DNA of 40,660 nucleotides from a virus. Where the stretch lies: UHGV virus genome UHGV-0383422; one strand, written 5' to 3'. Shown piece after piece: positions 1,308 through 39,429 of this stretch; position 1 is the stretch's first letter, and every line of letters starts with the position of its first letter. Under the pieces are notes generated by a model. The model was not told the DNA's origin. It saw nothing but the letters and a program-made list of their open reading frames with translations, and did not search any database. A program made the translations under genes and the position numbers.

Positions 1308-1324
1308 TATACCTTTAAGGTAAT
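1308..1324. promoter_or_regulatory. operator-like palindrome TATACCT-TTA-AGGTAAT upstream of int
   Basis: Member of the dispersed ATTACCT-N3-AGGTAAT family; 42-58 bp upstream of the int start codon; flanked by 9-bp inverted repeat TGACGGTAT/ATACCGTCA (1294-1302, 1323-1331). Confidence 0.45.
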
Positions 1325-6910: not shown

Positions 6911-6927
6911 ATTACCTTTCAGGTAAT
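6911..6927. promoter_or_regulatory. operator-like palindrome ATTACCT-TTC-AGGTAAT (perfect 7-3-7)
   Basis: In the divergent intergenic region between tailspike and the LexA-controlled gene. Confidence 0.5.
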
Positions 6928-6963: not shown

Positions 6964-6983
6964 TACTGTATAAATATACAGTT
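6964..6983 (+). promoter_or_regulatory. LexA (SOS) box TACTGTATAAATATACAGTT
   Basis: Perfect CTGT-N8-ACAG (6966-6981) with AT-rich spacer, about 20 bp upstream of the start codon at 7003; -35-like TTGATA at 6960-6965. Confidence 0.8.
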
Positions 6984-7002
6984 ATTGCATGGAGAAGATA
7001 AG

Positions 7003-7260
7003 ATGCAGCAGTATCACTATCCACTGGAAGACGGATTTACCGAAAGGATTCACACGCCGGGAGGCGTCAGGTCACTGGTGGAGGGATCGCACTTGATGAA
7101 ATTACTCCGGGATCTCGATAAGGATGGATTTAATGTCGATGGCCCACTTGCCGAACTGACTGCACTGATTAACTACGTCACCAGCTCACAGATGTCTATG
7201 CAGGATCTGCAAACACATCTCGACTATTGTGCCGAACAATTACGAAAACAAACCCGGTAA
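7003..7260 (+). CDS. small SOS-controlled antirepressor-like protein
   Basis: 85 aa from ATG at 7003 with GGAGA Shine-Dalgarno; LexA box upstream; clearly homologous to the C-terminal approx 80 aa of the Bro-N protein at 8409-9119. Confidence 0.7.
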   Translation: MQQYHYPLEDGFTERIHTPGGVRSLVEGSHLMKLLRDLDKDGFNVDGPLAELTALINYVTSSQMSMQDLQTHLDYCAEQLRKQTR

Positions 7261-8030: not shown

Positions 8031-8047
8031 ATTACCTTAAAGGTAAT
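8031..8047. promoter_or_regulatory. operator-like palindrome ATTACCT-TAA-AGGTAAT (perfect)
   Basis: 20-36 bp upstream of the start codon of the 7283-8011 gene; a weaker copy ATTACCT-TTG-CGGTAAA lies at 8124-8140. Confidence 0.5.
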
Positions 8048-8408
8048 ATCTTGCTTTCAGGTGATCAAGCGTTAAACGCCACCAACCAAATACGGTTGAT
8101 TTTGATATTTCTCCGCGTTTATCATTACCTTTGCGGTAAATTTACATCGCACTCCTCTTGTGCCATAGTAATCGGGCACTGGCAAAATCCAGTGCCGGGA
8201 TTGGCGTCCCGGGTTACTAAGTGGCGCATACCACGCCAGACGTGGTTTTTTTATGCGTTAAGCACAGCTATATCCGAATTATGGTGGGCTGGGCAGGGGT
8301 CCGAAAGGACGCCGGTACCACTTAGGCCGGTACGCCAACCTTGTCCAGTTCACCACCAGTAATTGGCGTTGCGGTGGTGATTAAAATCACTAAGTGGAGA
8401 TAACCACC

Positions 8409-9119
8409 ATGGCTAATGCTCAAACTTCCATCTTCAAATTTGAATCTGTTAACCCTATCCGTTCCATCATTATCGATGGCCAACCATGGTTTGTAGCCCA
8501 AGACGTTTGTAGTGCGCTGCGTATCCAAAACGTCACCCAAGCACTTGAAAAACTGGATGATGATGAAAGGTCTATGTTCAACATAGGGCATGAACATCGT
8601 GCAATTTTTGACAGCCGAGTAAAAGAGATCAACATCATCTCCGAGTCAGGCCTCTACACACTGATCCTCCGCTGCCGCGACGCAGTGACACCAGGCACTA
8701 TCCCCTACCGCTTTCGTAAATGGGTTACGGGTGAGGTTCTTCCTCAGATCCGCCGCACCGGAAGCTACATTAAAAACTCGCTCCCGCAGGAAGAACGCAT
8801 AAAGATGGTTGCCGACCAGGTGGCCAACGCCACGGCGTCAGCAGTAATGCAGGCGATGAAGATAGAGAACAAAACCTACAGCGCCCCACTGAATCCCGGC
8901 TACCGCAGCCTGATTCATTCGCCGTCTGGTGTTCTCGGCCTGACGGAGAACTCACTGCTGATGAATCTGCTGAACCAGTTACAGGACGACGGGCACGACG
9001 TATCGGGCGCGGCGGCGGAGCTGACCACCATGTTCTGCTACATCGTCGGTGTGAGCAAATGCCTGCGTGATATCCAGACCCACGCGGAATACATCAACGA
9101 CAAGGCAGGGTTCTTCTGA
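8409..9119 (+). CDS. Bro-N domain antirepressor-like protein
   Basis: 236 aa from ATG at 8409 with GGAGA Shine-Dalgarno; N-terminal Bro-N/KilA-N-like region; C-terminal domain homologous to the 7003-7260 product. Confidence 0.7.
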   Translation: MANAQTSIFKFESVNPIRSIIIDGQPWFVAQDVCSALRIQNVTQALEKLDDDERSMFNIGHEHRAIFDSRVKEINIISESGLYTLILRCRDAVTPGTIPYRFRKWVTGEVLPQIRRTGSYIKNSLPQEERIKMVADQVANATASAVMQAMKIENKTYSAPLNPGYRSLIHSPSGVLGLTENSLLMNLLNQLQDDGHDVSGAAAELTTMFCYIVGVSKCLRDIQTHAEYINDKAGFF

Positions 9120-10124: not shown

Positions 10125-10136
10125 GTGACATGTCAC
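10125..10136. repeat. 12-bp perfect palindrome GTGACATGTCAC (copy 1 of 3)
   Basis: Exact palindrome between convergent accessory genes and the ejection operon. Confidence 0.6.
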
Positions 10137-24089: not shown

Positions 24090-24382
24090 TCCTGTTCACT
24101 GGCCTCTTTGGCCATCTTCAAATACTGTTCAGGGCAATGCGCCATAACGCGCTGAAACAGTTCCAGCGCCAGATTGCGTTGCCCCTCATTAAATGCCATT
24201 GCCATAGCATCCATCGGAGAGATAGCGGAAAACACCCGGCCTTTCTCCAGCACCGACCAGACAACGCGACGCCCCTGTTCACTGCTCATGACAAAGCGAA
24301 TGTCATCAATTTCACGCTGTGCCATGTCACGTTGCTTACGGGCGTTTTCTTCTTTCAGTTGATCGTCTTCGAAATCTGTCAT
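24086..24382 (-). CDS. hypothetical head-morphogenesis protein
   Basis: 98 aa; coupled between portal and scaffold. Confidence 0.5.
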   Translation of the reverse strand: MTDFEDDQLKEENARKQRDMAQREIDDIRFVMSSEQGRRVVWSVLEKGRVFSAISPMDAMAMAFNEGQRNLALELFQRVMAHCPEQYLKMAKEASEQE

Positions 24383-26367: not shown

Positions 26368-26384
26368 TATTACCTTTCAGGTAA
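26368..26384. promoter_or_regulatory. operator-like palindrome ATTACCT-TTC-AGGTAAC
   Basis: Dispersed motif family member, in the terminase-portal accessory island. Confidence 0.45.
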
Positions 26385-26706: not shown

Positions 26707-26783
26707 GTGGCATTAGCTCAGTTGGACAGAGCAACCGCCTTCTAAGCGGTTGGTCGCAGGTTCGAATCCTGCATGCCACGCCA
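26707..26783 (+). tRNA. tRNA-Arg (anticodon UCU)
   Basis: Folded by hand: acceptor GTGGCAT/ATGCCAC, D-arm GCTC/GAGC, anticodon stem ACCGC/GCGGT with loop CTTCTAA (anticodon TCT), T-arm GCAGG-TTCGAAT-CCTGC, discriminator G and CCA. Confidence 0.9.
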
Positions 26784-26826
26784 GAATCACGCCTAAGGAC
26801 CGTGATGCCAGAAGTTCCAGGTGCTT

Positions 26827-26868
26827 GGCGGTGATGGTTTCCCTTGAAGGACTATCACCGCCCTTTTT
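26827..26868 (+). terminator. hairpin terminator downstream of tRNA
   Basis: Stem GGCGGTGAT/ATCACCGCC followed by CTTTTT. Confidence 0.55.
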
Positions 26869-26946
26869 ACAGCAGGACGCCATTGCGATGACTTCATGCT
26901 GTAAACCAGTACAGCCACGGAAGGCATAACTCATTGCTTCCAGTTC

Positions 26947-26971
26947 GCCCGGTTCGTCCGGGCATTTTTTT
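26947..26971 (+). terminator. rho-independent terminator
   Basis: Stem GCCCGG/CCGGGC with TTCGT loop followed by ATTTTTTT; next ATG only 13 nt downstream. Confidence 0.65.
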
Positions 26972-26983
26972 AAGGTGAAAATC

Positions 26984-27316
26984 ATGAAAGAGAAGACTGC
27001 AGCTGAGCGCTATGCCGCAGCTATCAATGCCGCGATGGCGATTGTAAACCTGCGTGAAGAGATTAAAGATCTCCTTGCAATTATCCATAACAACCTGACA
27101 TGTACAGAGTTGCTTGGCGGTCAGTACAACGGTGAGGCGGTGAAGGAGGCATTTAAAAATGCCGAGGTAGGAATAATTCCAGCAAACTATGTCAAGGCTG
27201 AATGTGTGCTCCTAAAGGCACGAGTGAGTCTGCATGAAGATCCTGGTAATCTCGGTCGAACTGCAATGCGTTACGTGATAGACGAGTCGAATGCCAAACA
27301 CAATCTACCGAAATAA
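26984..27316 (+). CDS. hypothetical protein (110 aa), accessory gene
   Basis: ATG at 26984 with AAGGTGA Shine-Dalgarno; convergent with large terminase; palindrome copy just after the stop. Confidence 0.55.
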   Translation: MKEKTAAERYAAAINAAMAIVNLREEIKDLLAIIHNNLTCTELLGGQYNGEAVKEAFKNAEVGIIPANYVKAECVLLKARVSLHEDPGNLGRTAMRYVIDESNAKHNLPK

Positions 27317-27320
27317 CACC

Positions 27321-27332
27321 GTGACATGTCAC
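27321..27332. repeat. 12-bp perfect palindrome GTGACATGTCAC (copy 2 of 3)
   Basis: Exact palindrome four nt after the stop of 26984-27316. Confidence 0.6.
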
Positions 27333-28882: not shown

Positions 28883-29553
28883 TGATTACCATCCTGACGT
28901 TCTTTGAGTCGCTTCCTGGCTGCTGCTATGCGATCAGCAATTGTCACATTCACATTAACATCCAGACGTTCTTTGAACGCGTTGACATCAACATGCTTAC
29001 CAATCAGCTCAAGGTTCTTCACCTTGTCAGGCCATTTAATTTTTTTGAGGATTGTCTCTATCGAATCCTCGTTCATGTTCATGATGGTCGATGACAGATC
29101 AAAGCCACTAAGCGTAGTGCGCCAGATTTTCGGCCACTCACGGATTGGTTTAAGGCTCCCATCGTCGTTGAGGATGTCGATCACGTCCATCTGGTCGATC
29201 TCCACCAGGCGCATGAGAACGTAATCAGCACTGACGCGCATTCGTTTGTTGCGCTCCTCCATCAACTCGGCAATCCGTTTTTGAATGCGTTCATCGCGCA
29301 TCATGACACTGGCTTTAACTGCCGCTGTATTTGGGGAGAATCCTGCGTTAATCGCTGCCTGAGTCTGGTTTTCAGGCGTTTTGATGTATGACTGGCAATA
29401 AGCCTCCTGCATTGCTGTTAGTGGCTTAAATTGCGTTGATTTGCGTTTATAGGTTTTAGGTTCAGCAGGCATCATAACCACCGTGGTAATAGTTACCGTT
29501 GTGGTAATAGTACCATGCAAAATAAAGCCGCCATAGTTGGCGGCAGTATTCAA
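28879..29553 (-). CDS. terminase small subunit
   Basis: 224 aa; N-terminal HTH-like region (AMQEAYCQSYIKTPENQTQAAINAGFSPNTAAVKA); likelier start may be the internal MM at 29475, as the listed N-terminus is encoded by a direct-repeat region. Confidence 0.8.
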   Translation of the reverse strand: MNTAANYGGFILHGTITTTVTITTVVMMPAEPKTYKRKSTQFKPLTAMQEAYCQSYIKTPENQTQAAINAGFSPNTAAVKASVMMRDERIQKRIAELMEERNKRMRVSADYVLMRLVEIDQMDVIDILNDDGSLKPIREWPKIWRTTLSGFDLSSTIMNMNEDSIETILKKIKWPDKVKNLELIGKHVDVNAFKERLDVNVNVTIADRIAAARKRLKERQDGNQ

Positions 29554-29585
29554 AACCCATCAAATTCATCATGCATAATCTACTC

Positions 29586-29597
29586 GTGACATGTCAC
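29586..29597. repeat. 12-bp perfect palindrome GTGACATGTCAC (copy 3 of 3)
   Basis: Exact palindrome between the upstream gene stop and the small-terminase start region. Confidence 0.6.
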
Positions 29598-29941
29598 ACT
29601 ATTAATTTCGTTTCATGCCAGCCTTTAGTCACCCAGCATTGCGAGTCACCATTACACGGGCATGAATTAACTGGAACTCTCTCGCCGCACTTACCGCAAC
29701 ATTTTCTGCTGATCGATTTTATACGCCCGCGCACGCGTGCATCATCCTGGCGGATCAGTAACGCGATGTACTCGGCCATTTCATAGGGATCGCGACCAGG
29801 GCGCCGGGCGGCGCAGTTCCGCGCCAGCATTTCCTGCTCCTGCTTATCCAGCACCAGTTCAATTTTGCGCTCACCGGCGGCGGACTGCCGAGCGCGCTGC
29901 GCGGCTTTGCGTTCTGCGGGGGATTTAGCCACGAATCGCAC
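29594..29941 (-). CDS. hypothetical protein with Cys-rich C-terminus (start uncertain)
   Basis: Listed ORF starts at GTG; internal ATG (MLARN...) has AGGAG Shine-Dalgarno; C-terminus CCGKCGERVPVNSCPCNGDSQCW; GC-rich segment. Confidence 0.4.
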   Translation of the reverse strand: MRFVAKSPAERKAAQRARQSAAGERKIELVLDKQEQEMLARNCAARRPGRDPYEMAEYIALLIRQDDARVRGRIKSISRKCCGKCGERVPVNSCPCNGDSQCWVTKGWHETKLIV

Positions 29942-33596: not shown

Positions 33597-33613
33597 TTTA
33601 CCTCTAAGGTAAT
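33597..33613. promoter_or_regulatory. operator-like palindrome TTTACCT-CTA-AGGTAAT
   Basis: Dispersed motif family; overlaps the ribosome-binding region of 33250-33594. Confidence 0.45.
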
Positions 33614-33658
33614 TAAAAACCATATAAGACACGAAATCAATAGAGTTTAGAATATTTT

Positions 33659-33675
33659 GTTACCTTGTAGGTAAT
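33659..33675. promoter_or_regulatory. operator-like palindrome GTTACCT-TGT-AGGTAAT
   Basis: Second copy 62 bp from the previous one, between replication and nin-like modules. Confidence 0.45.
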
Positions 33676-33711
33676 TGTTGAGGCGTAAAAAAATGCGCTA
33701 TCGCGCTGGTA

Positions 33712-34488
33712 TTACTTGATAAATCCTGCCGCCTTTCCCCGCCTGTATTCCTCCATCAGCCACTGCGCCGGTGTTATTCCCCCAAGGGTGGCGGCGTTAG
33801 GCATGCACCCGAAACTTCGCCCTGGTGGATGGTAAACGTCTCTCCCTGTGTCCGGAGGTGTACTCATGGGCTCTGGCTTTGCCTGTATGCTGATCACCGG
33901 ATCGGGTATCTGCTGTCCGGAAGCCACCTTTTTCGCCCAATCATCGAGCAGCCTGCGCGCGTGTTTCTCAACCTCACTCTCGCTAAGCTGGCGCTGATAC
34001 ATTGCACGACGGGTATCACATACGACCCAGTACATAACCGGATGCCGCCACGGGAATCTTTCGGGACCACCAGGATATAAACTTTTTTCCTTGCTGTACC
34101 GGTGAAACTCCGCCATCACATCGTCAATGGTGACGCCAAGAACCATCTTGCTGTCTTTGCACCACTTGATGAATTGCCCTGGCGACGGCCAGAACGGAGA
34201 TTCACTGGCGCGGGCGTGGCGCATACCAGCGTTAACCTGTTCCATTGTAGTGATCCCATTCTCCAGAAACGCAAGCATCCATTGCTTACGGAATTCATTA
34301 AGTTTGTTCTGCTCCCTTATGGTCGAAACGCTTGCAGGAAATGCAGCCTGTAACTGGACAAATAGTTCATTGAAAATTCTAGCAACCTGCTCCTTTTTGC
34401 CATTGCTGTCACGCCGCTCTTCATGCACAGCAACACCATGCTCACGTAAGCGATCGTACTCATTGAGAAGTTCTGGAGTTGATTTCAT
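33712..34488 (-). CDS. replication protein (P-like helicase-loader candidate)
   Basis: 258 aa, downstream of and overlapping the initiator-like gene; no Walker A; assignment by position. Confidence 0.5.
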   Translation of the reverse strand: MKSTPELLNEYDRLREHGVAVHEERRDSNGKKEQVARIFNELFVQLQAAFPASVSTIREQNKLNEFRKQWMLAFLENGITTMEQVNAGMRHARASESPFWPSPGQFIKWCKDSKMVLGVTIDDVMAEFHRYSKEKSLYPGGPERFPWRHPVMYWVVCDTRRAMYQRQLSESEVEKHARRLLDDWAKKVASGQQIPDPVISIQAKPEPMSTPPDTGRDVYHPPGRSFGCMPNAATLGGITPAQWLMEEYRRGKAAGFIK

Positions 34489-35302
34489 CCCACACCCCTT
34501 CTATCCAGTCAGTGTTATTCCAGTCAAGCTCATCGCTTTTCCCGGCATTTTTTGATTTTCCCCTGATATGATTTACGTGCCTGGCGAATTTTTGTTCCCA
34601 CTGAACCTGCGTGAACACTTTGCCCTCAGCCATCCAGTAATCCCGGAATGCAGCAAGTTCAGCAGGTGTAAATTCCGGTTCCGGCAGGGCCGTTCCCCAC
34701 AGCGCAGCACGCCGCCGAAAATCTGGCGACGGTAGCCAGCCATCTGTCATCGGAAATTTCCCGATGGGTTCACTCAGGCCATCCAGAAATTCAGGTTCTG
34801 CCACCTGCAACGGCGTACTGTTCGCTTCACTGGTCGGAGCACCCTCGCGCACGTGCGCTATGTGTGGGGTTTTATATATATCTTCCTCTTCCTCTGGTAA
34901 CTCCTTTTGTAACGCTGTTGGCGTTACTTTTTGCGTTACTCGTTTTCTATGCTCTGCCACTCTTCTATTCGTAAGTGCACGTTTTTTCGATGATTCTCCA
35001 TTATGTCGCTCAAAGTTTGGAAGAATTAGTTTGCCGTCATGATAAGCAAGCCATCCGACGCTAATGAGGGCGTCAGCAAATCCTGTAATAAAAGCGAGTC
35101 TATCAAGTACTCCTTTTGTAACGCTGCCAGCGTTACCGTCTATTGTTTGCTGGTCAGCCCATGCCCATATACGAACCAGCTTTCCAAGAACAGCATCTGG
35201 ATCAATACCCAGAATTTCTGCTATCTGAAAAATTTCAGGTTTATCAGGAGTGATAACTTCAACCTTAATCCAGCTGCTTGCCATAGGTTTCCCCTCTTGC
35301 AC
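34460..35302 (-). CDS. replication initiator / replisome organizer (O-like) with DnaT-like C-terminal region
   Basis: 280 aa; contains internal iteron-like repeats in different reading frames plus an AT-rich tract. Confidence 0.6.
   Translation of the reverse strand: MQEGKPMASSWIKVEVITPDKPEIFQIAEILGIDPDAVLGKLVRIWAWADQQTIDGNAGSVTKGVLDRLAFITGFADALISVGWLAYHDGKLILPNFERHNGESSKKRALTNRRVAEHRKRVTQKVTPTALQKELPEEEEDIYKTPHIAHVREGAPTSEANSTPLQVAEPEFLDGLSEPIGKFPMTDGWLPSPDFRRRAALWGTALPEPEFTPAELAAFRDYWMAEGKVFTQVQWEQKFARHVNHIRGKSKNAGKSDELDWNNTDWIEGVWDEINSRTSQ
34895..35138. repeat. candidate origin: iteron-like repeats (GTAACGC/GCGTTAC) and AT-rich tract inside the initiator gene
   Basis: 26-bp repeat TCCTTTTGTAACGCTG..GCGTTAC at 34901-34926 and 35111-35136, each an inverted repeat; extra GCGTTAC at 34932-34938; TTTTATATATAT at 34870-34881. 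Confidence 0.5.
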
Positions 35303-35477
35303 TCTTTAGTGCACAAGCAAATTCATTACGATGGCGGTTGGCGCTATTCATTGCACATTCAACACATGTTCCGTTCAGAACATACCTTTCAGAGAGATGG
35401 CCGTGACGGCACCGCTTTCCTGTGAAATAGCGATTTAACCCGGCTTTTGCGGCCTCCATTCTGGTTACTATCTTCAA
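35265..35477 (-). CDS. hypothetical small Cys/His-containing protein
   Basis: 70 aa; CRHGH...CVEC...C pattern suggests metal binding; between cro-like and replication genes. Confidence 0.45.
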   Translation of the reverse strand: MKIVTRMEAAKAGLNRYFTGKRCRHGHLSERYVLNGTCVECAMNSANRHRNEFACALKSARGETYGKQLD

Positions 35478-35571
35478 TTTTTCCGCCCCTTTTTGTTATT
35501 GATATTGGCTATTTTGCACAATTGGAAAATTTGATCAACCAGATTTGGTTTTTTATTACCCTTAAGGTGCG

Positions 35572-35603
35572 AATAGATATGAAAAGACCGCCGGATGGCG
35601 GTC
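35572..35603 (-). terminator. rho-independent terminator immediately after the cro-like gene
   Basis: Stem GACCGCC/GGCGGTC with GGAT loop followed on the minus strand by TTTTCATATCTATT. Confidence 0.6.
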
Positions 35604-35625
35604 TACAGAGGGTTGTGGCTGGATA

Positions 35626-35856
35626 TCATGAGTAGAAGAAGTATGCCAGTTCTGCTTTTGAGCGCAGCCATTGTCTTGTTTTACAGGCTTTAAAAAGCCC
35701 ATTCATCAATACTTTACCTGGCATTTTGCGCTTGCCTGTTAAGTGAGTCTGGATATAGTGACTCGTCGTTCCGGCTTCCTGTGCGAAGGCTTCACGCTCA
35801 TCCGGAGTAAGTGCAAGCCAGTGCTTTTTGAAATCGAAATGTCCGTTATCGCTCAT
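35626..35856 (-). CDS. Cro-like HTH regulator
   Basis: 76 aa; HTH-like segment FAQEAGTTSHYIQTHLTGKRK; divergent from the CI-like gene across an operator cluster. Confidence 0.6.
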   Translation of the reverse strand: MSDNGHFDFKKHWLALTPDEREAFAQEAGTTSHYIQTHLTGKRKMPGKVLMNGLFKACKTRQWLRSKAELAYFFYS

Positions 35857-35891
35857 AGCTATTGCCTGATATTTATTTCAGATAATAAATA

Positions 35892-35956
35892 TTCACCCAT
35901 AAGGTAACAAAAATCAAGGATAGTTACCTATGAGGTGCATTTACCTGTTGGGTAAT
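35892..35956. promoter_or_regulatory. operator cluster: three palindromes of the ATTACCT-N3-AGGTAAT family at the cro/cI divergent region
   Basis: 35892-35908 TTCACCC-ATA-AGGTAAC; 35923-35939 GTTACCT-ATG-AGGTGCA; 35940-35956 TTTACCT-GTT-GGGTAAT. Confidence 0.6.
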
Positions 35957-36010
35957 ATTGCTTTAAATTGAATCATCTACTGATTCATATATGAGGCGAT
36001 TTTCCAGAAA

Positions 36011-36595
36011 ATGAAAAGTATCCAGGACGTCCGCAGGCAAAATCTCAACGACTTGATCGACCGTGAATTCAATGGTGTTCAGACGCGGATGGCAGAAAAA
36101 CTTGGAACTCAGGCAAATCTGGTAAACCGCTGGGCTCTTGGCAAGAAGGTTATCGGCGACCAGGTTGCACGAAAAATTGAAGCTGCCGCCAATAAACCCC
36201 GTAACTGGCTTGATATTGATCGTTCGCTTTCTCAGGAGGGTTTTCAGCCTGTCGGCCCGAGCGATATAGGTCAGCTGGCGGCTCACAACCTGGAACGCTG
36301 GATGAGCGAAAGCCGCGACCTTTCAACACAGGGAAAACTTCACCGCGCATCCGGCGTCGCCCAGGTGACAATCAGCCGCCTGTTAAACAATGAGGTCAGC
36401 GTTTCCATTTCCACCCTGGAGAATGTTGCATCCGCATTCGGGCGTCACGGATATGAACTACTGATTCACCCGCACGACCCTGCGACTATCAACTATGACC
36501 GCTCACGCTACGCATTGTTACCCGAAACCGAGAAAGCAAAGATCGAAAGTTACATTGAATTTGTCATCAACCAGAACGAAAAAAGCAAACAATAA
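36011..36595 (+). CDS. CI-like repressor candidate (HTH; no LexA-type self-cleavage domain evident)
   Basis: 194 aa; HTH-like segments; no Ser-Lys peptidase motif; divergent from cro-like gene; own terminator. Confidence 0.55.
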   Translation: MKSIQDVRRQNLNDLIDREFNGVQTRMAEKLGTQANLVNRWALGKKVIGDQVARKIEAAANKPRNWLDIDRSLSQEGFQPVGPSDIGQLAAHNLERWMSESRDLSTQGKLHRASGVAQVTISRLLNNEVSVSISTLENVASAFGRHGYELLIHPHDPATINYDRSRYALLPETEKAKIESYIEFVINQNEKSKQ

Positions 36596-36616
36596 AACTA
36601 TAGTTTTCAGTAAGTA

Positions 36617-36641
36617 AGCCGCCTCATGGCGGCTTTTTTAT
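36617..36641 (+). terminator. rho-independent terminator after the CI-like gene
   Basis: Stem AGCCGCC/GGCGGCT with TCAT loop followed by TTTTTTA. Confidence 0.8.
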
Positions 36642-36652
36642 TGCCAGATAGA

Positions 36653-36669
36653 TTACCTTACGGGTAATT
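36653..36669. promoter_or_regulatory. operator-like palindrome ATTACCT-TAC-GGGTAAT
   Basis: Between the CI terminator and the promoter of the rightward recombination operon; weaker related copy at 36714-36730. Confidence 0.5.
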
Positions 36670-36686
36670 TTTTTAACTCATATCTA

Positions 36687-36715
36687 TTGACACCAAACCA
36701 AATAAGCATAATTAT
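36687..36715 (+). promoter_or_regulatory. candidate sigma70 promoter for rightward early operon
   Basis: TTGACA (36687-36692), 17-bp spacer, AATTAT-like -10; sits between terminator/operator and the first ORF. Confidence 0.35.
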
Positions 36716-36748
36716 TACCCCAACGGTAACAGACCGAGGTAACAAGTT

Positions 36749-39180: not shown

Positions 39181-39429
39181 ATGAAAGGTGCATTAGGTAA
39201 GAAAGAACTCCTGGCGGTGGTGCCACTGTCATGGAGCACTATCGACCGTATGGAGCGCGCAGGGGAATTTCCTAAACGCTGGTATATCACCGATAAACGC
39301 TGCGCATGGAACCGTGATGAAGTTGAGCGTTGGCTTGATGAACGTCAGGCAGCAAGCCCGGCAGAGTTCCAGGGTAAAAAGCCTCCTGTTCAGCAACGTG
39401 TATATCGTCCCGTGAGCAACGCTGCATGA
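39181..39429 (+). CDS. AlpA-like HTH regulator (possible excisionase/directionality factor)
   Basis: 82 aa; LLAVVPLSWSTIDRMERAGEFPK then WNRDEVERWL pattern typical of AlpA-type small DNA-binding proteins. Confidence 0.55.
   Translation: MKGALGKKELLAVVPLSWSTIDRMERAGEFPKRWYITDKRCAWNRDEVERWLDERQAASPAEFQGKKPPVQQRVYRPVSNAA

What the first reader, a model, noticed from the sequence alone, without database searches (positions are those of the whole stretch)
35572..35603. Intrinsic terminator directly after the cro-like gene with no recognisable antiterminator
A strong hairpin plus T-run follows the Cro-like gene, and an operator-like site (35555-35571) follows that. Downstream replication genes therefore need either antitermination or their own repressor-controlled promoter. 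I could not identify N-like or Q-like antiterminator genes by eye.
Basis: inference. Interest (0 to 1): 0.3.

Follow-up and report, generated by a model that had tools for sequence, protein, structure and literature searches.

The report
Terminator after cro, then separate promoter
The hairpin is a real, conserved transcription stop signal after the cro-like gene of an ε15/phiV10-type E. coli phage, already annotated in phiV10, and the replication genes behind it most likely have their own repressor-controlled promoter, so no antiterminator is needed.

Summary
On the minus strand, 21 nt after the cro-like stop codon, lies an 8-bp GC-rich hairpin (35604-35585) followed by TTTCATATCT, then an operator-like site (35570-35556).

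The window is an ε15-like (Uetakevirus) temperate podophage, about 98% identical to vB_EcoP_ZX5, HEMP4 and TL-2011b. The identical hairpin is already annotated as a putative rho-independent terminator in phiV10 (DQ126339.2).

The operator belongs to the TTACC-N5-GGTAA family: 11 perfect copies against 0.01 expected. GenBank annotates the same motif as repressor-binding sites in ε15. The repressor is a homolog of SPC32H Rep (PDB 5D50).

No N-like or Q-like protein, boxA, or known RNA family was found.

Right after the operator is a promoter-like module: -35 TTGATC, 16 nt, -10 CAAAAT. Its key bases are invariant in 15 relatives from about 10 enterobacterial genera, whereas the terminator's T-tract is lost in several clades. 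The layout (operator, 17-19 nt, -35, 16-17 nt, -10) recurs at pL and after the P-like gene.

This is ordinary biology in a known phage group, so interest is low.

The parts
35626..35856 (-). cro-like gene (76 aa, HTH), divergent from the repressor gene
   Evidence: ORF. PHROG phrog_35 'transcriptional repressor', E 5.6e-13. No Pfam or NCBIfam hit. 58-100% identical homologs sit at the same position in ε15-like phages.
35585..35604 (-). terminator hairpin AGACCGCC-ATCC-GGCGGTCT
   Evidence: Identical sequence annotated 'putative rho-independent terminator' in phiV10 DQ126339.2 33078-33100. Stem changes in 43 E. coli haplotypes are wobble-preserving only.
35575..35584 (-). T-tract/tail TTTCATATCT (with the stem's last T: TTTT-C-AT-AT-CT)
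   Evidence: T-score is 3.55, which is moderate. The tract is degenerate in the Salmonella, Citrobacter and Klebsiella relatives.
35556..35570 (.). Rep operator-like site O_rep, TTACCCTTAAGGTGC (minus strand GCACCTTAAGGGTAA), centred about -59 from the predicted start of P_rep
   Evidence: Family TTACC-N5-GGTAA: 11 perfect copies against 0.01 expected. PWM rank 15 of about 40,600. The same motif is annotated protein_bind 'repressor' in ε15. The GGTAA arm is invariant in 15 relatives.
35537..35550 (.). palindrome AACCAAATCTGGTT (AACC-N6-GGTT) abutting the -35; function unknown (UP-like element or regulator site)
   Evidence: Arms conserved and centre variable in relatives. The 17-mer AACC-N6-GGTTGAT recurs only at 8084-8100, in front of a strong promoter-like site.
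35533..35538 (-). predicted -35 hexamer TTGATC of P_rep
   Evidence: GGTTGATC is invariant in 15 relatives. The only E. coli variant is TTGATA, which is closer to consensus. Rough sigma-70 matrix rank 98 of 81,250; best site on this strand in the intergenic region.
35511..35516 (-). predicted -10 hexamer CAAAAT of P_rep (16-nt spacer); start site inferred near 35504
   Evidence: AAAAT is invariant in 15 relatives at 15-17 nt from the -35, while the spacer sequence diverges. No transcript data: inference.
35265..35477 (-). first gene behind the terminator: 70-aa Cys/His-rich protein (ε15 gp40 homolog, TTG start), function unknown
   Evidence: phrog_1081, E 2e-27. The TTG start is supported by alignment with ATG-started homologs.
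34460..35284 (-). replication protein with DnaT DNA-binding domain
   Evidence: Pfam PF17948, E 1.6e-18. ATG at 35284.
33712..34488 (-). lambda P-like replication protein
   Evidence: Pfam PF06992, E 5e-56.
35882..35955 (.). OR region: three operators (35893-35907, 35924-35938, 35941-35955) and pR (-35 TTGTTA 35910-35905, -10 TATTAT 35887-35882, minus strand)
   Evidence: pR ranks 9 of 81,250.
36011..36595 (+). repressor (Rep), homolog of Salmonella phage SPC32H Rep
   Evidence: PDB 5D50_A, E 3.5e-42 over residues 1-190. Pfam HTH_3.
36616..36729 (+). mirror-image module on the other side of the immunity cassette: terminator 36616-36635, operator 36653-36667, pL (-35 TTGACA 36687-36692, -10 AATTAT 36710-36715), operator 36715-36729
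   Evidence: pL ranks 5 of 81,250. Inverted-repeat relation to the cro-side module (I3, I6, D9).
33598..33708 (-). same layout after the P-like gene: weak hairpin plus T7 (33708-33687), operator 33674-33660, -35 TTGATT 33640-33635, -10 TTTAAT 33617-33612, operator 33612-33598, then the DUF1064 gene
   Evidence: phiV10 annotates a terminator at the equivalent place. ε15 annotates a repressor site there.

Best explanation
The hairpin plus T-tract is an intrinsic terminator that ends the short pR-cro transcript. The immunity cassette (rep and cro) is therefore closed by a terminator on both sides.

The genes behind it are the gp40-like gene, the DnaT-domain replication gene and the lambda-P-like gene. 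They are transcribed mainly from their own sigma-70 promoter, P_rep: -35 TTGATC 35538-35533 and -10 CAAAAT 35516-35511. It starts about 80 nt behind the terminator.

The phage repressor (an SPC32H-Rep homolog) controls this promoter through the operator at 35570-35556, centred near -59. It may act by occluding an A/T-rich upstream element or by bridging to other operators as a tetramer. No processive antitermination is involved.

The phage is organised, like P1, into several terminator-bounded units that each carry Rep operators.

Shown: hairpin, T-tract, operator family, repressor homology, conservation pattern, absence of known antiterminator signatures.
Inferred: that termination occurs, that P_rep fires, and that Rep represses it from -59.
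For: (1) The hairpin and T-tract are real and under selection. phiV10 annotates the identical hairpin as a terminator.

(2) TTACC-N5-GGTAA occurs 11 times perfectly against 0.01 expected, always in intergenic or promoter regions. ε15's record annotates seven such sites as repressor-binding. Rep is homologous to PDB 5D50 Rep, and its antirepressor partner is also present. O_rep ranks 15th genome-wide, next to two OR sites.

(3) In 15 relatives from E. coli, Salmonella, Citrobacter, Klebsiella, Enterobacter, Kluyvera, Buttiauxella, Pseudocitrobacter and Scandinavium, the blocks GGTAA, GGTTGATC and AAAAT are invariant at promoter-like spacing. The spacer and the 5' leader diverge.

(4) The terminator's T-tract is degenerate (score below 0) in 9 of those 15, yet the promoter block persists in all.

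(5) The same architecture recurs at pL and after the P-like gene: operator, 17-19 nt, -35, 16-17 nt, -10. In most relatives P_rep's -10 is directly followed by a TTACC half-site, as at those promoters.

(6) The 17-mer AACC-N6-GGTTGAT recurs once more, in front of a top-ranking promoter-like site at 8096-8125.

(7) The only population variant of the -35 (TTGATA) improves the match to consensus.

(8) No N, Q, nut or put-like element was found.
Against: - There are no transcript data.
- P_rep matches the consensus at only 8 of 12 positions and was not listed by the 9-of-12 scan. About 0.18 sites of that quality are expected by chance in this intergenic region, so the case rests on conservation.
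- An operator at -59 without a good partner over the -10/+1 is not a classical repression geometry. It could even be an activating position.
- O_rep has two mismatches, and its distal arm is degenerate in Buttiauxella and Scandinavium.
- With only four U before a C, the terminator may be leaky, so read-through from pR could contribute substantially.
- The primary papers on ε15 and SPC32H regulation could not be read. They may already define or contradict these sites.
Confidence: 0.6

Rival explanations
1. Leaky attenuator. The terminator stops only part of pR transcription, and the replication genes are expressed mainly by unassisted read-through. This resembles the basal read-through of tR1 in lambda, stated from general knowledge. 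The conserved block behind it would then be a protein-binding site with another role (regulator, roadblock or recombination linker) and not a promoter. Rep bound at O_rep would block residual read-through in the lysogen.
For: - The T-tract is short (TTTT then C; T-score 3.55).
- In Salmonella, Citrobacter and Klebsiella relatives the hairpin has no usable T-tract, so read-through must be common there.
- O_rep lies between the terminator and the genes, where a bound repressor could act as a roadblock.
- P_rep has only 8 of 12 consensus matches.
Against: - The invariant bases fall exactly on a -35-like and a -10-like hexamer at 15-17 nt spacing, with divergent sequence between them.
- The same layout occurs at pL and at the promoter after the P-like gene.
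- The -35 variant seen in the population is an up-mutation type.
Confidence: 0.2
2. Unrecognised antitermination. A phage factor of a family not yet described, protein or RNA, modifies RNA polymerase started at pR so that it passes the terminator.
For: - Many early ORFs have no known function, including the 50-aa and 104-aa first genes of the pL operon and the 70-aa Cys/His protein.
- An AlpA-family protein is encoded at 39181-39429. One member of that family is known, from my own knowledge, to act as an antiterminator.
- A conserved palindrome, GTGACATGTCAC, sits next to late-region terminators. This shows that unexplained terminator-associated signals exist in this phage.
Against: - No hit to any N or Q family.
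- No boxA on the pR transcript and no Rfam hit.
- Only 19 nt of leader and 21 nt between the cro stop and the hairpin, leaving no room for a nut- or put-like site outside the coding sequence. The pR-cro RNA is not unusually structured (z = -1.1).
- The first pL genes lack arginine-rich motifs.
- The AlpA-like gene sits where an excisionase is expected.
Confidence: 0.07
3. The hairpin's main role is not termination. It would be protection or processing of the 3' end of cro mRNA, with termination an accessory property in some clades.
For: The hairpin is conserved in all 15 relatives, but the T-tract in only about 6.
Against: - In the E. coli, Enterobacter, Buttiauxella and Scandinavium versions the T-tract is good and invariant.
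- Protecting a 3' end still requires that an end be made there.
- This overlaps with the main explanation more than it competes with it.
Confidence: 0.08

Closest known systems
Terminator annotated after gene p41 of Escherichia phage phiV10 (GenBank DQ126339.2, 33078-33100)
   Same: Identical hairpin sequence, in the same position after a 100% identical cro-like protein. The same record also annotates terminators after the repressor gene and after the P-like gene.
   Different: Nothing at the terminator itself. Downstream of GGTTGATC the window carries a different (mosaic) version of the promoter spacer, gp40 and the start of the replication gene. The phiV10 record does not annotate the operator or a promoter there.
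Repressor/antirepressor system of Salmonella phages ε15 and SPC32H (Rep-Ant, PDB 5D50; 'repressor' binding sites in AY150271.2)
   Same: Homologous Rep (E 3.5e-42) and Ant (E 5e-47). Same ATTACC-N5-GGTAAT operator motif spread over the genome. Paired operators are 62 bp apart in both phages.
   Different: ε15's record does not list the site behind gp39 (cro) or the OR sites. ε15's hairpin after gp39 lacks a T-tract and is not annotated as a terminator. The window has a second, RNA-controlled antirepressor module.
Lambda tR1 / nutR / N antitermination
   Same: Same map position: a transcription stop between cro and the cII-position gene plus the replication genes. The replication protein is lambda-P-like.
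   Different: From general knowledge, lambda tR1 is Rho-dependent and is overcome by N acting at nutR. Here the stop is intrinsic, there is no N, boxA or boxB, and a separate promoter is predicted behind it.
Phage P1 immunity (C1 repressor with many dispersed operators; immI c4 antisense RNA-ant)
   Same: One repressor with about 15 operators at separate transcription units, and no early antitermination. A C4-family antisense RNA precedes an antirepressor gene. This describes how it works, not what family it belongs to.
   Different: Rep is an XRE/HTH-type protein homologous to SPC32H Rep. The operator motif is a symmetric palindrome, whereas P1's is asymmetric (my own knowledge). The virion and genome type are podovirus ε15-like.
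HK022 put RNA (factor-independent antitermination)
   Same: A lambdoid-like layout without an N protein.
   Different: No structured RNA element lies between pR and the terminator: z = -1.1 and no space in the non-coding parts.

Membership tests
Intrinsic (Rho-independent) terminator | G+C-rich stem-loop immediately followed by a U-rich tract on the transcribed strand | tested here: met
   8-bp stem, 6 G-C, loop 4, then TTTCATATCT. Score +16.8. The U-tract is only moderate (4 U, C, AUAU).
Intrinsic (Rho-independent) terminator | Located downstream of a gene on the same strand, with conserved placement in relatives | tested here: met
   21 nt after the cro stop. A hairpin at the same place in 15 relatives. 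Stem variants keep pairing.
Intrinsic (Rho-independent) terminator | RNA 3' ends formed at the U-tract in vivo or in vitro | not testable with these tools
   No transcript data were available.
ε15/SPC32H-type Rep operator | Match to the palindrome (A)TTACC-N5-GGTAA(T) | tested here: inconclusive
   One arm is perfect (TTACC/GGTAA) and the other is GGTGC, with 2 mismatches. About 34 such 2-mismatch sites are expected by chance (my calculation). PWM rank is 15 of about 40,600, beside two OR sites. The proximal arm is invariant in relatives.
ε15/SPC32H-type Rep operator | A cognate Rep protein is encoded by the same phage | tested here: met
   PDB 5D50_A, E 3.5e-42.
ε15/SPC32H-type Rep operator | Bound by Rep | not testable with these tools
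   Needs EMSA, footprinting or ChIP.
Sigma-70 promoter (P_rep) | -35 and -10 hexamers at 16-18 nt spacing | tested here: met
   TTGATC, 16 nt, CAAAAT: 8 of 12 matches, with A at -11 and T at -7 present. Rank 98 of 81,250. Below the 9-of-12 cut-off of the scan tool.
Sigma-70 promoter (P_rep) | Phylogenetic footprint on the hexamers but not the spacer | tested here: met
   GGTTGATC and AAAAT are invariant in 15 sequences, and the spacer varies in sequence and by +/-1 nt.
Sigma-70 promoter (P_rep) | Primary transcript 5' end downstream of the -10 | not testable with these tools
   No TSS data.
Lambda N / nut antitermination | N-family protein (arginine-rich motif) as first gene of pL, with boxA/boxB on the pR and pL transcripts | tested here: not met
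   The first pL ORFs (50 aa, 104 aa) match PHROGs of unknown function only and have no arginine-rich motif. boxA CGCTCTTA is at chance level, with none on the pR transcript.
Q-type antitermination | Protein of a Q family (Pfam/PHROG/NCBIfam antiterminator Q models) | tested here: not met
   No hit among about 25 early, regulatory and Q-position ORFs. The 115-aa Q-position protein has no named homolog, a low-confidence model (pLDDT 62) and no PDB fold match.
HK022 put-type RNA antitermination | Conserved two-stem-loop RNA between promoter and terminator | tested here: not met
   The pR-cro RNA has z = -1.1. Non-coding space is 19 + 21 nt only. No Rfam match, but I did not verify that Rfam holds a put model.

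The most novel reading that the evidence does not exclude
ε15-like phages may run their whole lytic programme without processive antitermination of early genes. In this reading the genome is cut into at least 6 terminator-bounded units. Each is gated by a Rep tetramer that bridges two operators exactly 62 bp apart across the promoter.

P_rep would be a derived version that has lost the proximal operator. It would instead be governed from -59 together with the conserved AACC-N6-GGTT palindrome next to its -35, possibly the site of a lytic-phase activator such as the cro-like or gp40-like protein. The terminator would then be an insulator that lets Cro and replication be switched separately.

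A second conserved palindrome, GTGACATGTCAC, lies beside the late-region terminators. It is conserved at equivalent places in ε15. It could mark an undescribed late control system, either activation or antitermination.
Probability: 0.2. Interest if true: 0.45.

Novelty: already known. Interest (0 to 1): 0.15.

Why it matters
It matters little beyond annotation. The result explains how a common E. coli prophage type expresses its replication genes without a lambda-style N protein. The intergenic region is present in 460 of 5,426 complete E. coli genomes and is unannotated there.

It adds one probable Rep operator and one probable promoter to the map of ε15/phiV10-like phages. These phages are used as reporter and typing phages and as the model for the SPC32H Rep-Ant switch.

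If P_rep is confirmed, it shows that the immunity cassette is insulated by terminators on both sides. It would also show that early control in this group is P1-like (many separately repressed units) and not lambda-like (an antitermination cascade).

Tried and rejected
- **N/Q families.** Pfam, PHROGs and NCBIfam scans of cro, gp40, both first pL ORFs, all right-operon ORFs down to terS, and the AlpA-like, PerC-like and 193-aa ORFs found no antiterminator family.
- **boxA search.** At chance level (25 hits against 27 expected), with none on the pR or pL transcripts.
- **Rfam.** At gathering and at E<=10 thresholds, only chance-level hits, all on the repressor terminator.
- **put-like structure.** The pR-cro RNA is not unusually stable.
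- **Plus-strand (antisense, pRE-like) promoters in the intergenic region.** Candidates TTGTTA-18-CACAAT and TTGATC-17-TATTAC score lower, and their hexamers are not conserved in relatives. Rejected.
- **IHF site or Dam-specific role of the GATC inside the -35.** The IHF consensus does not fit, and several E. coli haplotypes have GATA. Not pursued.
- **A pL-like -35 (TTCGCA) overlapping O_rep**, suggested by the inverted repeat with the pL side (I3). No -10 follows it. Rejected.
- **Q-position 115-aa protein.** 748 homologs, all 'hypothetical'. The AF2 model has pLDDT 62, and Foldseek against the PDB gave nothing below E = 1. The top weak hits are ribbon-helix-helix proteins. Inconclusive.
- **Literature.** Kropinski 2007 (ε15), Kim & Ryu 2013 and Kim 2016 (SPC32H) are not held. 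The ZX5 paper mentions four predicted promoters but no operators or terminators.
- **Covariation test of operator specificity.** Not possible, because all relatives found share the same operator motif.

Full report
**What the window is.** The 3.7 kb around the finding is 97-98.5% identical to Escherichia phages vB_EcoP_ZX5, HEMP4 and TL-2011b, and partly identical to phiV10. All are ε15-like temperate podophages of the genus Uetakevirus. The window holds one attP core (1457-1473), an integrase, lysis genes, a tailspike, structural genes, terminase, and an immunity/replication region at 33.6-37 kb.

The 194-aa protein at 36011-36595 (+) is a homolog of the SPC32H repressor Rep (PDB 5D50_A, E 3.5e-42). 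The 91-aa protein at 6985-7260 is a homolog of its antirepressor Ant (5D50_E, E 5e-47) and is preceded by a LexA box (6964-6983). Divergent from rep lies a 76-aa HTH protein (35856-35626, minus) matching PHROG 35 'transcriptional repressor'. It occupies the cro position.

Downstream on the minus strand follow three genes:
- a 70-aa Cys/His-rich ORF, the ε15 gp40 homolog;
- a DnaT-domain replication protein;
- a lambda-P-like protein.

**Checking the observation.** On the minus strand, 21 nt after the cro stop, lies AGACCGCCATCCGGCGGTCT (35604-35585), followed by TTTCATATCT. The stem has 8 pairs, 6 of them G-C. The 7-bp core folds at -12.9 kcal/mol, and a d'Aubenton-Carafa-type score is +16.8. 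The surrounding 101 nt fold with z = -3.0. The complementary strand has no T-run after the hairpin, so the element works in one direction only.

The pattern scan finds such motifs only slightly more often than chance in this region (14 against 9.4 +/- 3.0). This one and the terminator after rep are its two best hits. The case that it is more than chance comes from comparison:
- A hairpin occupies the same position after cro in 15 non-redundant relatives from E. coli, Enterobacter, Salmonella, Citrobacter, Klebsiella, Kluyvera, Buttiauxella, Pseudocitrobacter and Scandinavium. One of them carries a fully compensated stem, GCCACC/GGTGGC.
- In 80 E. coli viral contigs or prophages (43 haplotypes of this stretch), the 3' arm and the TTTT never vary. 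The loop varies freely. The only 5'-arm changes are A->G and C->T, which keep G-U pairs.

It is also not new: phiV10's GenBank record annotates exactly this sequence as a 'putative rho-independent terminator', along with terminators after rep and after the P-like gene.

**The operator-like site.** TTACCCTTAAGGTGC (35556-35570) resembles three sites between cro and rep and two sites at the pL side. A search for TTACC-N5-GGTR with one mismatch gives 47 hits against 10 +/- 3 expected. The perfect palindrome TTACC-N5-GGTAA occurs 11 times against 0.01 expected. All 11 lie in intergenic or promoter regions.

The ε15 GenBank record annotates seven sites of the same ATTACC-N5-GGTAAT motif as protein_bind 'repressor', so the motif class is known. 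The site behind the terminator is a weak member, with two mismatches in one arm. That alone would not be significant. However, a matrix trained only on the perfect copies ranks it 15th of about 40,600 positions, directly beside two OR sites. Its promoter-proximal arm GGTAA is invariant in all 15 relatives.

**Looking for antitermination.** Nothing was found:
- Pfam, PHROGs and NCBIfam scans of about 25 ORFs returned no N- or Q-family hit. The set covered all small early ORFs of both operons, the ORFs in the 'N position' (50 and 104 aa) and the one in the 'Q position' (115 aa).
- The only regulators recognised are a PerC-like protein, an AlpA/excisionase-like protein, and a 115-aa PHROG 'transcriptional regulator'.
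- For that 115-aa protein, 748 homologs are all unnamed. Its AF2 model is poor (pLDDT 62), and no PDB fold match falls below E = 1.
- boxA-like octamers are at chance level and none lies on the pR transcript.
- Rfam gives nothing relevant.
- The pR-cro RNA is not unusually structured (z = -1.1). Only 19 + 21 nt of it are non-coding.

**What lies behind the operator.** Aligning the cro-gp40 spacer of the 15 relatives shows three invariant blocks in otherwise diverging sequence. These are GGTAA (the operator arm), GGTTGATC, and AAAAT 15-17 nt further on.

Read as a sigma-70 promoter, this gives -35 TTGATC (35538-35533), a 16-nt spacer and -10 CAAAAT (35516-35511). The critical A(-11) and T(-7) are present. 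The predicted start is near 35504, about 27 nt before the TTG start of the gp40-like ORF.

On a rough matrix it ranks 98th of 81,250 positions and is the best site on this strand in the spacer. pL, pR and a promoter at 8096 rank 5th to 9th. By itself the site is not significant: about 0.18 such sites are expected in the spacer. The argument is therefore the footprint plus five further points:
1. The same order of elements occurs at pL (36653-36729) and after the P-like gene (33674-33598): operator, 17-19 nt of A/T-rich DNA, -35, 16-17 nt, -10. In both places a second operator starts on the last base of the -10.
2. In most relatives P_rep's -10 is likewise followed at once by a TTACC half-site, and in BUCT554 by a near-complete operator.
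3. The 17-mer AACC-N6-GGTTGAT recurs only once more in the window, in front of the high-scoring promoter at 8096-8125.
4. The only natural variant of the -35 is TTGATA, closer to consensus.
5. The T-tract of the terminator is degenerate (score below 0) in the Salmonella, Citrobacter, Klebsiella, Kluyvera and Pseudocitrobacter versions. The promoter block is kept everywhere.

The two flanks of the immunity cassette are also mirror images: terminator, operator, A/T-rich stretch, -35 (I3, I6, D9).

**Most likely mechanism.** pR makes a short cro message that ends at the hairpin. The gp40-like and replication genes are transcribed from P_rep. The repressor keeps P_rep off in the lysogen through O_rep, centred near -59.

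How a single upstream site represses is not shown. One option is occlusion of an UP-like A/T tract. Another is bridging by the tetrameric Rep, which according to a secondary source binds DNA as a tetramer. Paired operators at pL and at the 33.6-kb promoter are exactly 62 bp apart, as in ε15. P_rep lacks a good partner site, so its control may differ. A site at -59 could even be activating.

Partial read-through of a terminator with only four U is likely and may add to expression. I give the own-promoter explanation 0.6, pure read-through 0.2, an unknown antiterminator 0.07, and a mainly RNA-stability role 0.08.

**Comparison with known systems.**
- The element is the same as the phiV10 annotated terminator.
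- The operator class and repressor are those of ε15 and SPC32H.
- The map position matches lambda tR1. From general knowledge, tR1 is Rho-dependent and is bypassed by N at nutR. Neither N nor a nut site is present here.
- Functionally the arrangement resembles P1: one repressor, many dispersed operators, separate units, plus a C4-type antisense RNA in front of an antirepressor. The proteins are different.

**Verdict.** This is a correct observation and a sound interpretation of an ordinary regulatory feature in a well-known phage group that is already partly annotated. The added value is a probable Rep operator and a probable replication-operon promoter that I did not find annotated in any record inspected. 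Novelty: already known. Interest: low.

Noticed in passing
window 10125-10136, 27321-27332, 29586-29597 (and 24319-24330 with 1 mismatch); L009 (ε15) 2142, 19517, 39612: A perfect 12-bp palindrome, GTGACATGTCAC, occurs 3 times (4 with one mismatch) against 0.18 expected. Each perfect copy lies beside a terminator-like hairpin of the late operons. One overlaps the stop codon of the 115-aa regulator just before the terS terminator. ε15 has it at the three equivalent places, unannotated. It may be the site of a late regulator, acting by activation or antitermination.
   Followed up: partly
window 8176-8252, 8277-8360 (+), 8394-9119 (+): Rfam isrK (67.7 bits) and C4 antisense RNA (66 bits) lie in tandem in front of a second, 241-aa antirepressor. 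Its C-terminal ~75 aa are 42% identical to the SPC32H-type Ant encoded at 6985-7260. This is a P1 immI / Gifsy-1 IsrK-like RNA-controlled antirepressor module added to the LexA-controlled one. Rep operators lie at 8032 and 8125.
   Followed up: partly
window 6964-6983: A near-consensus LexA box (TACTGTATAAATATACAGTT) lies directly before the Ant homolog (6985-7260), next to a Rep operator at 6912-6926. This is consistent with SOS-controlled antirepression as described for SPC32H.
   Followed up: partly
window 36653/36715 and 33598/33660; L009 32555/32617 and 35907/35969: Paired Rep operators flanking a promoter are exactly 62 bp apart, start to start, in both the window and ε15. This suggests that one Rep tetramer bridges both sites across the -35 region.
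   Followed up: partly
window 29459-29600 (minus strand): The late operon entry reads: palindrome, promoter-like GTGACA-18-CATGAT, strong terminator (29544-29527), a -10-like TACTAT without a -35, two Rep operators (29507-29493, 29489-29475), then the terS ATG (29475). This fits either an activator-dependent late promoter behind an insulating terminator, or a lambda pR'-tR'-like arrangement.
   Followed up: partly
window 35533-35550 and 8084-8101: The block AACCAAAT(C/A)(T/C)GGTTGAT(C/T) is shared by the predicted replication promoter and a promoter upstream of the isrK/C4/ant2 module. The AACC-N6-GGTT arms are conserved across genera while the centre varies. It may be a regulator site next to the -35.
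   Followed up: partly
window ~35532 (just downstream of GGTTGATC); loci L019-L098: E. coli relatives with an identical cro and terminator fall into two types that diverge exactly after the -35 hexamer: the window/TL-2011b type and the phiV10 type. The types differ in spacer, gp40 and the start of the replication gene. This marks a mosaic junction inside the promoter.
   Followed up: partly
window 35969-35987: A perfect 7-bp inverted repeat, TGAATCA-N5-TGATTCA, lies between the OR operators and the rep start codon. It may be a site for the cro-like protein or another regulator of pRM.
   Followed up: no
window 26707-26783 (+), 26370-26384: tRNA-Arg(TCT) lies on the strand opposite to the flanking structural genes. 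It is downstream of a TTGACA -35 hexamer and a perfect Rep operator, and it overlaps a 90-aa minus-strand ORF (26713-26985, phrog_4647).
   Followed up: no
window 1309-1323: An operator-like palindrome (ATACCTTTAAGGTAA) just upstream of the integrase start is embedded in a longer inverted repeat (GACGGTAT...ATACCGTC). ε15 annotates an RNase III site at the equivalent place, so it may be an RNA hairpin and not, or not only, an operator.
   Followed up: no
L010 (NZ_RAVW01000927.1, 408 bp): A 408-bp, low-coverage contig labelled Corallococcus exercitus encodes a 100% identical cro-like protein. This is most likely E. coli phage contamination of that assembly.
   Followed up: no
window 35478-35625: This intergenic stretch is present at 90% identity or more in 460 of 5,426 complete E. 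coli genomes, with no feature annotated under it in RefSeq.
   Followed up: yes
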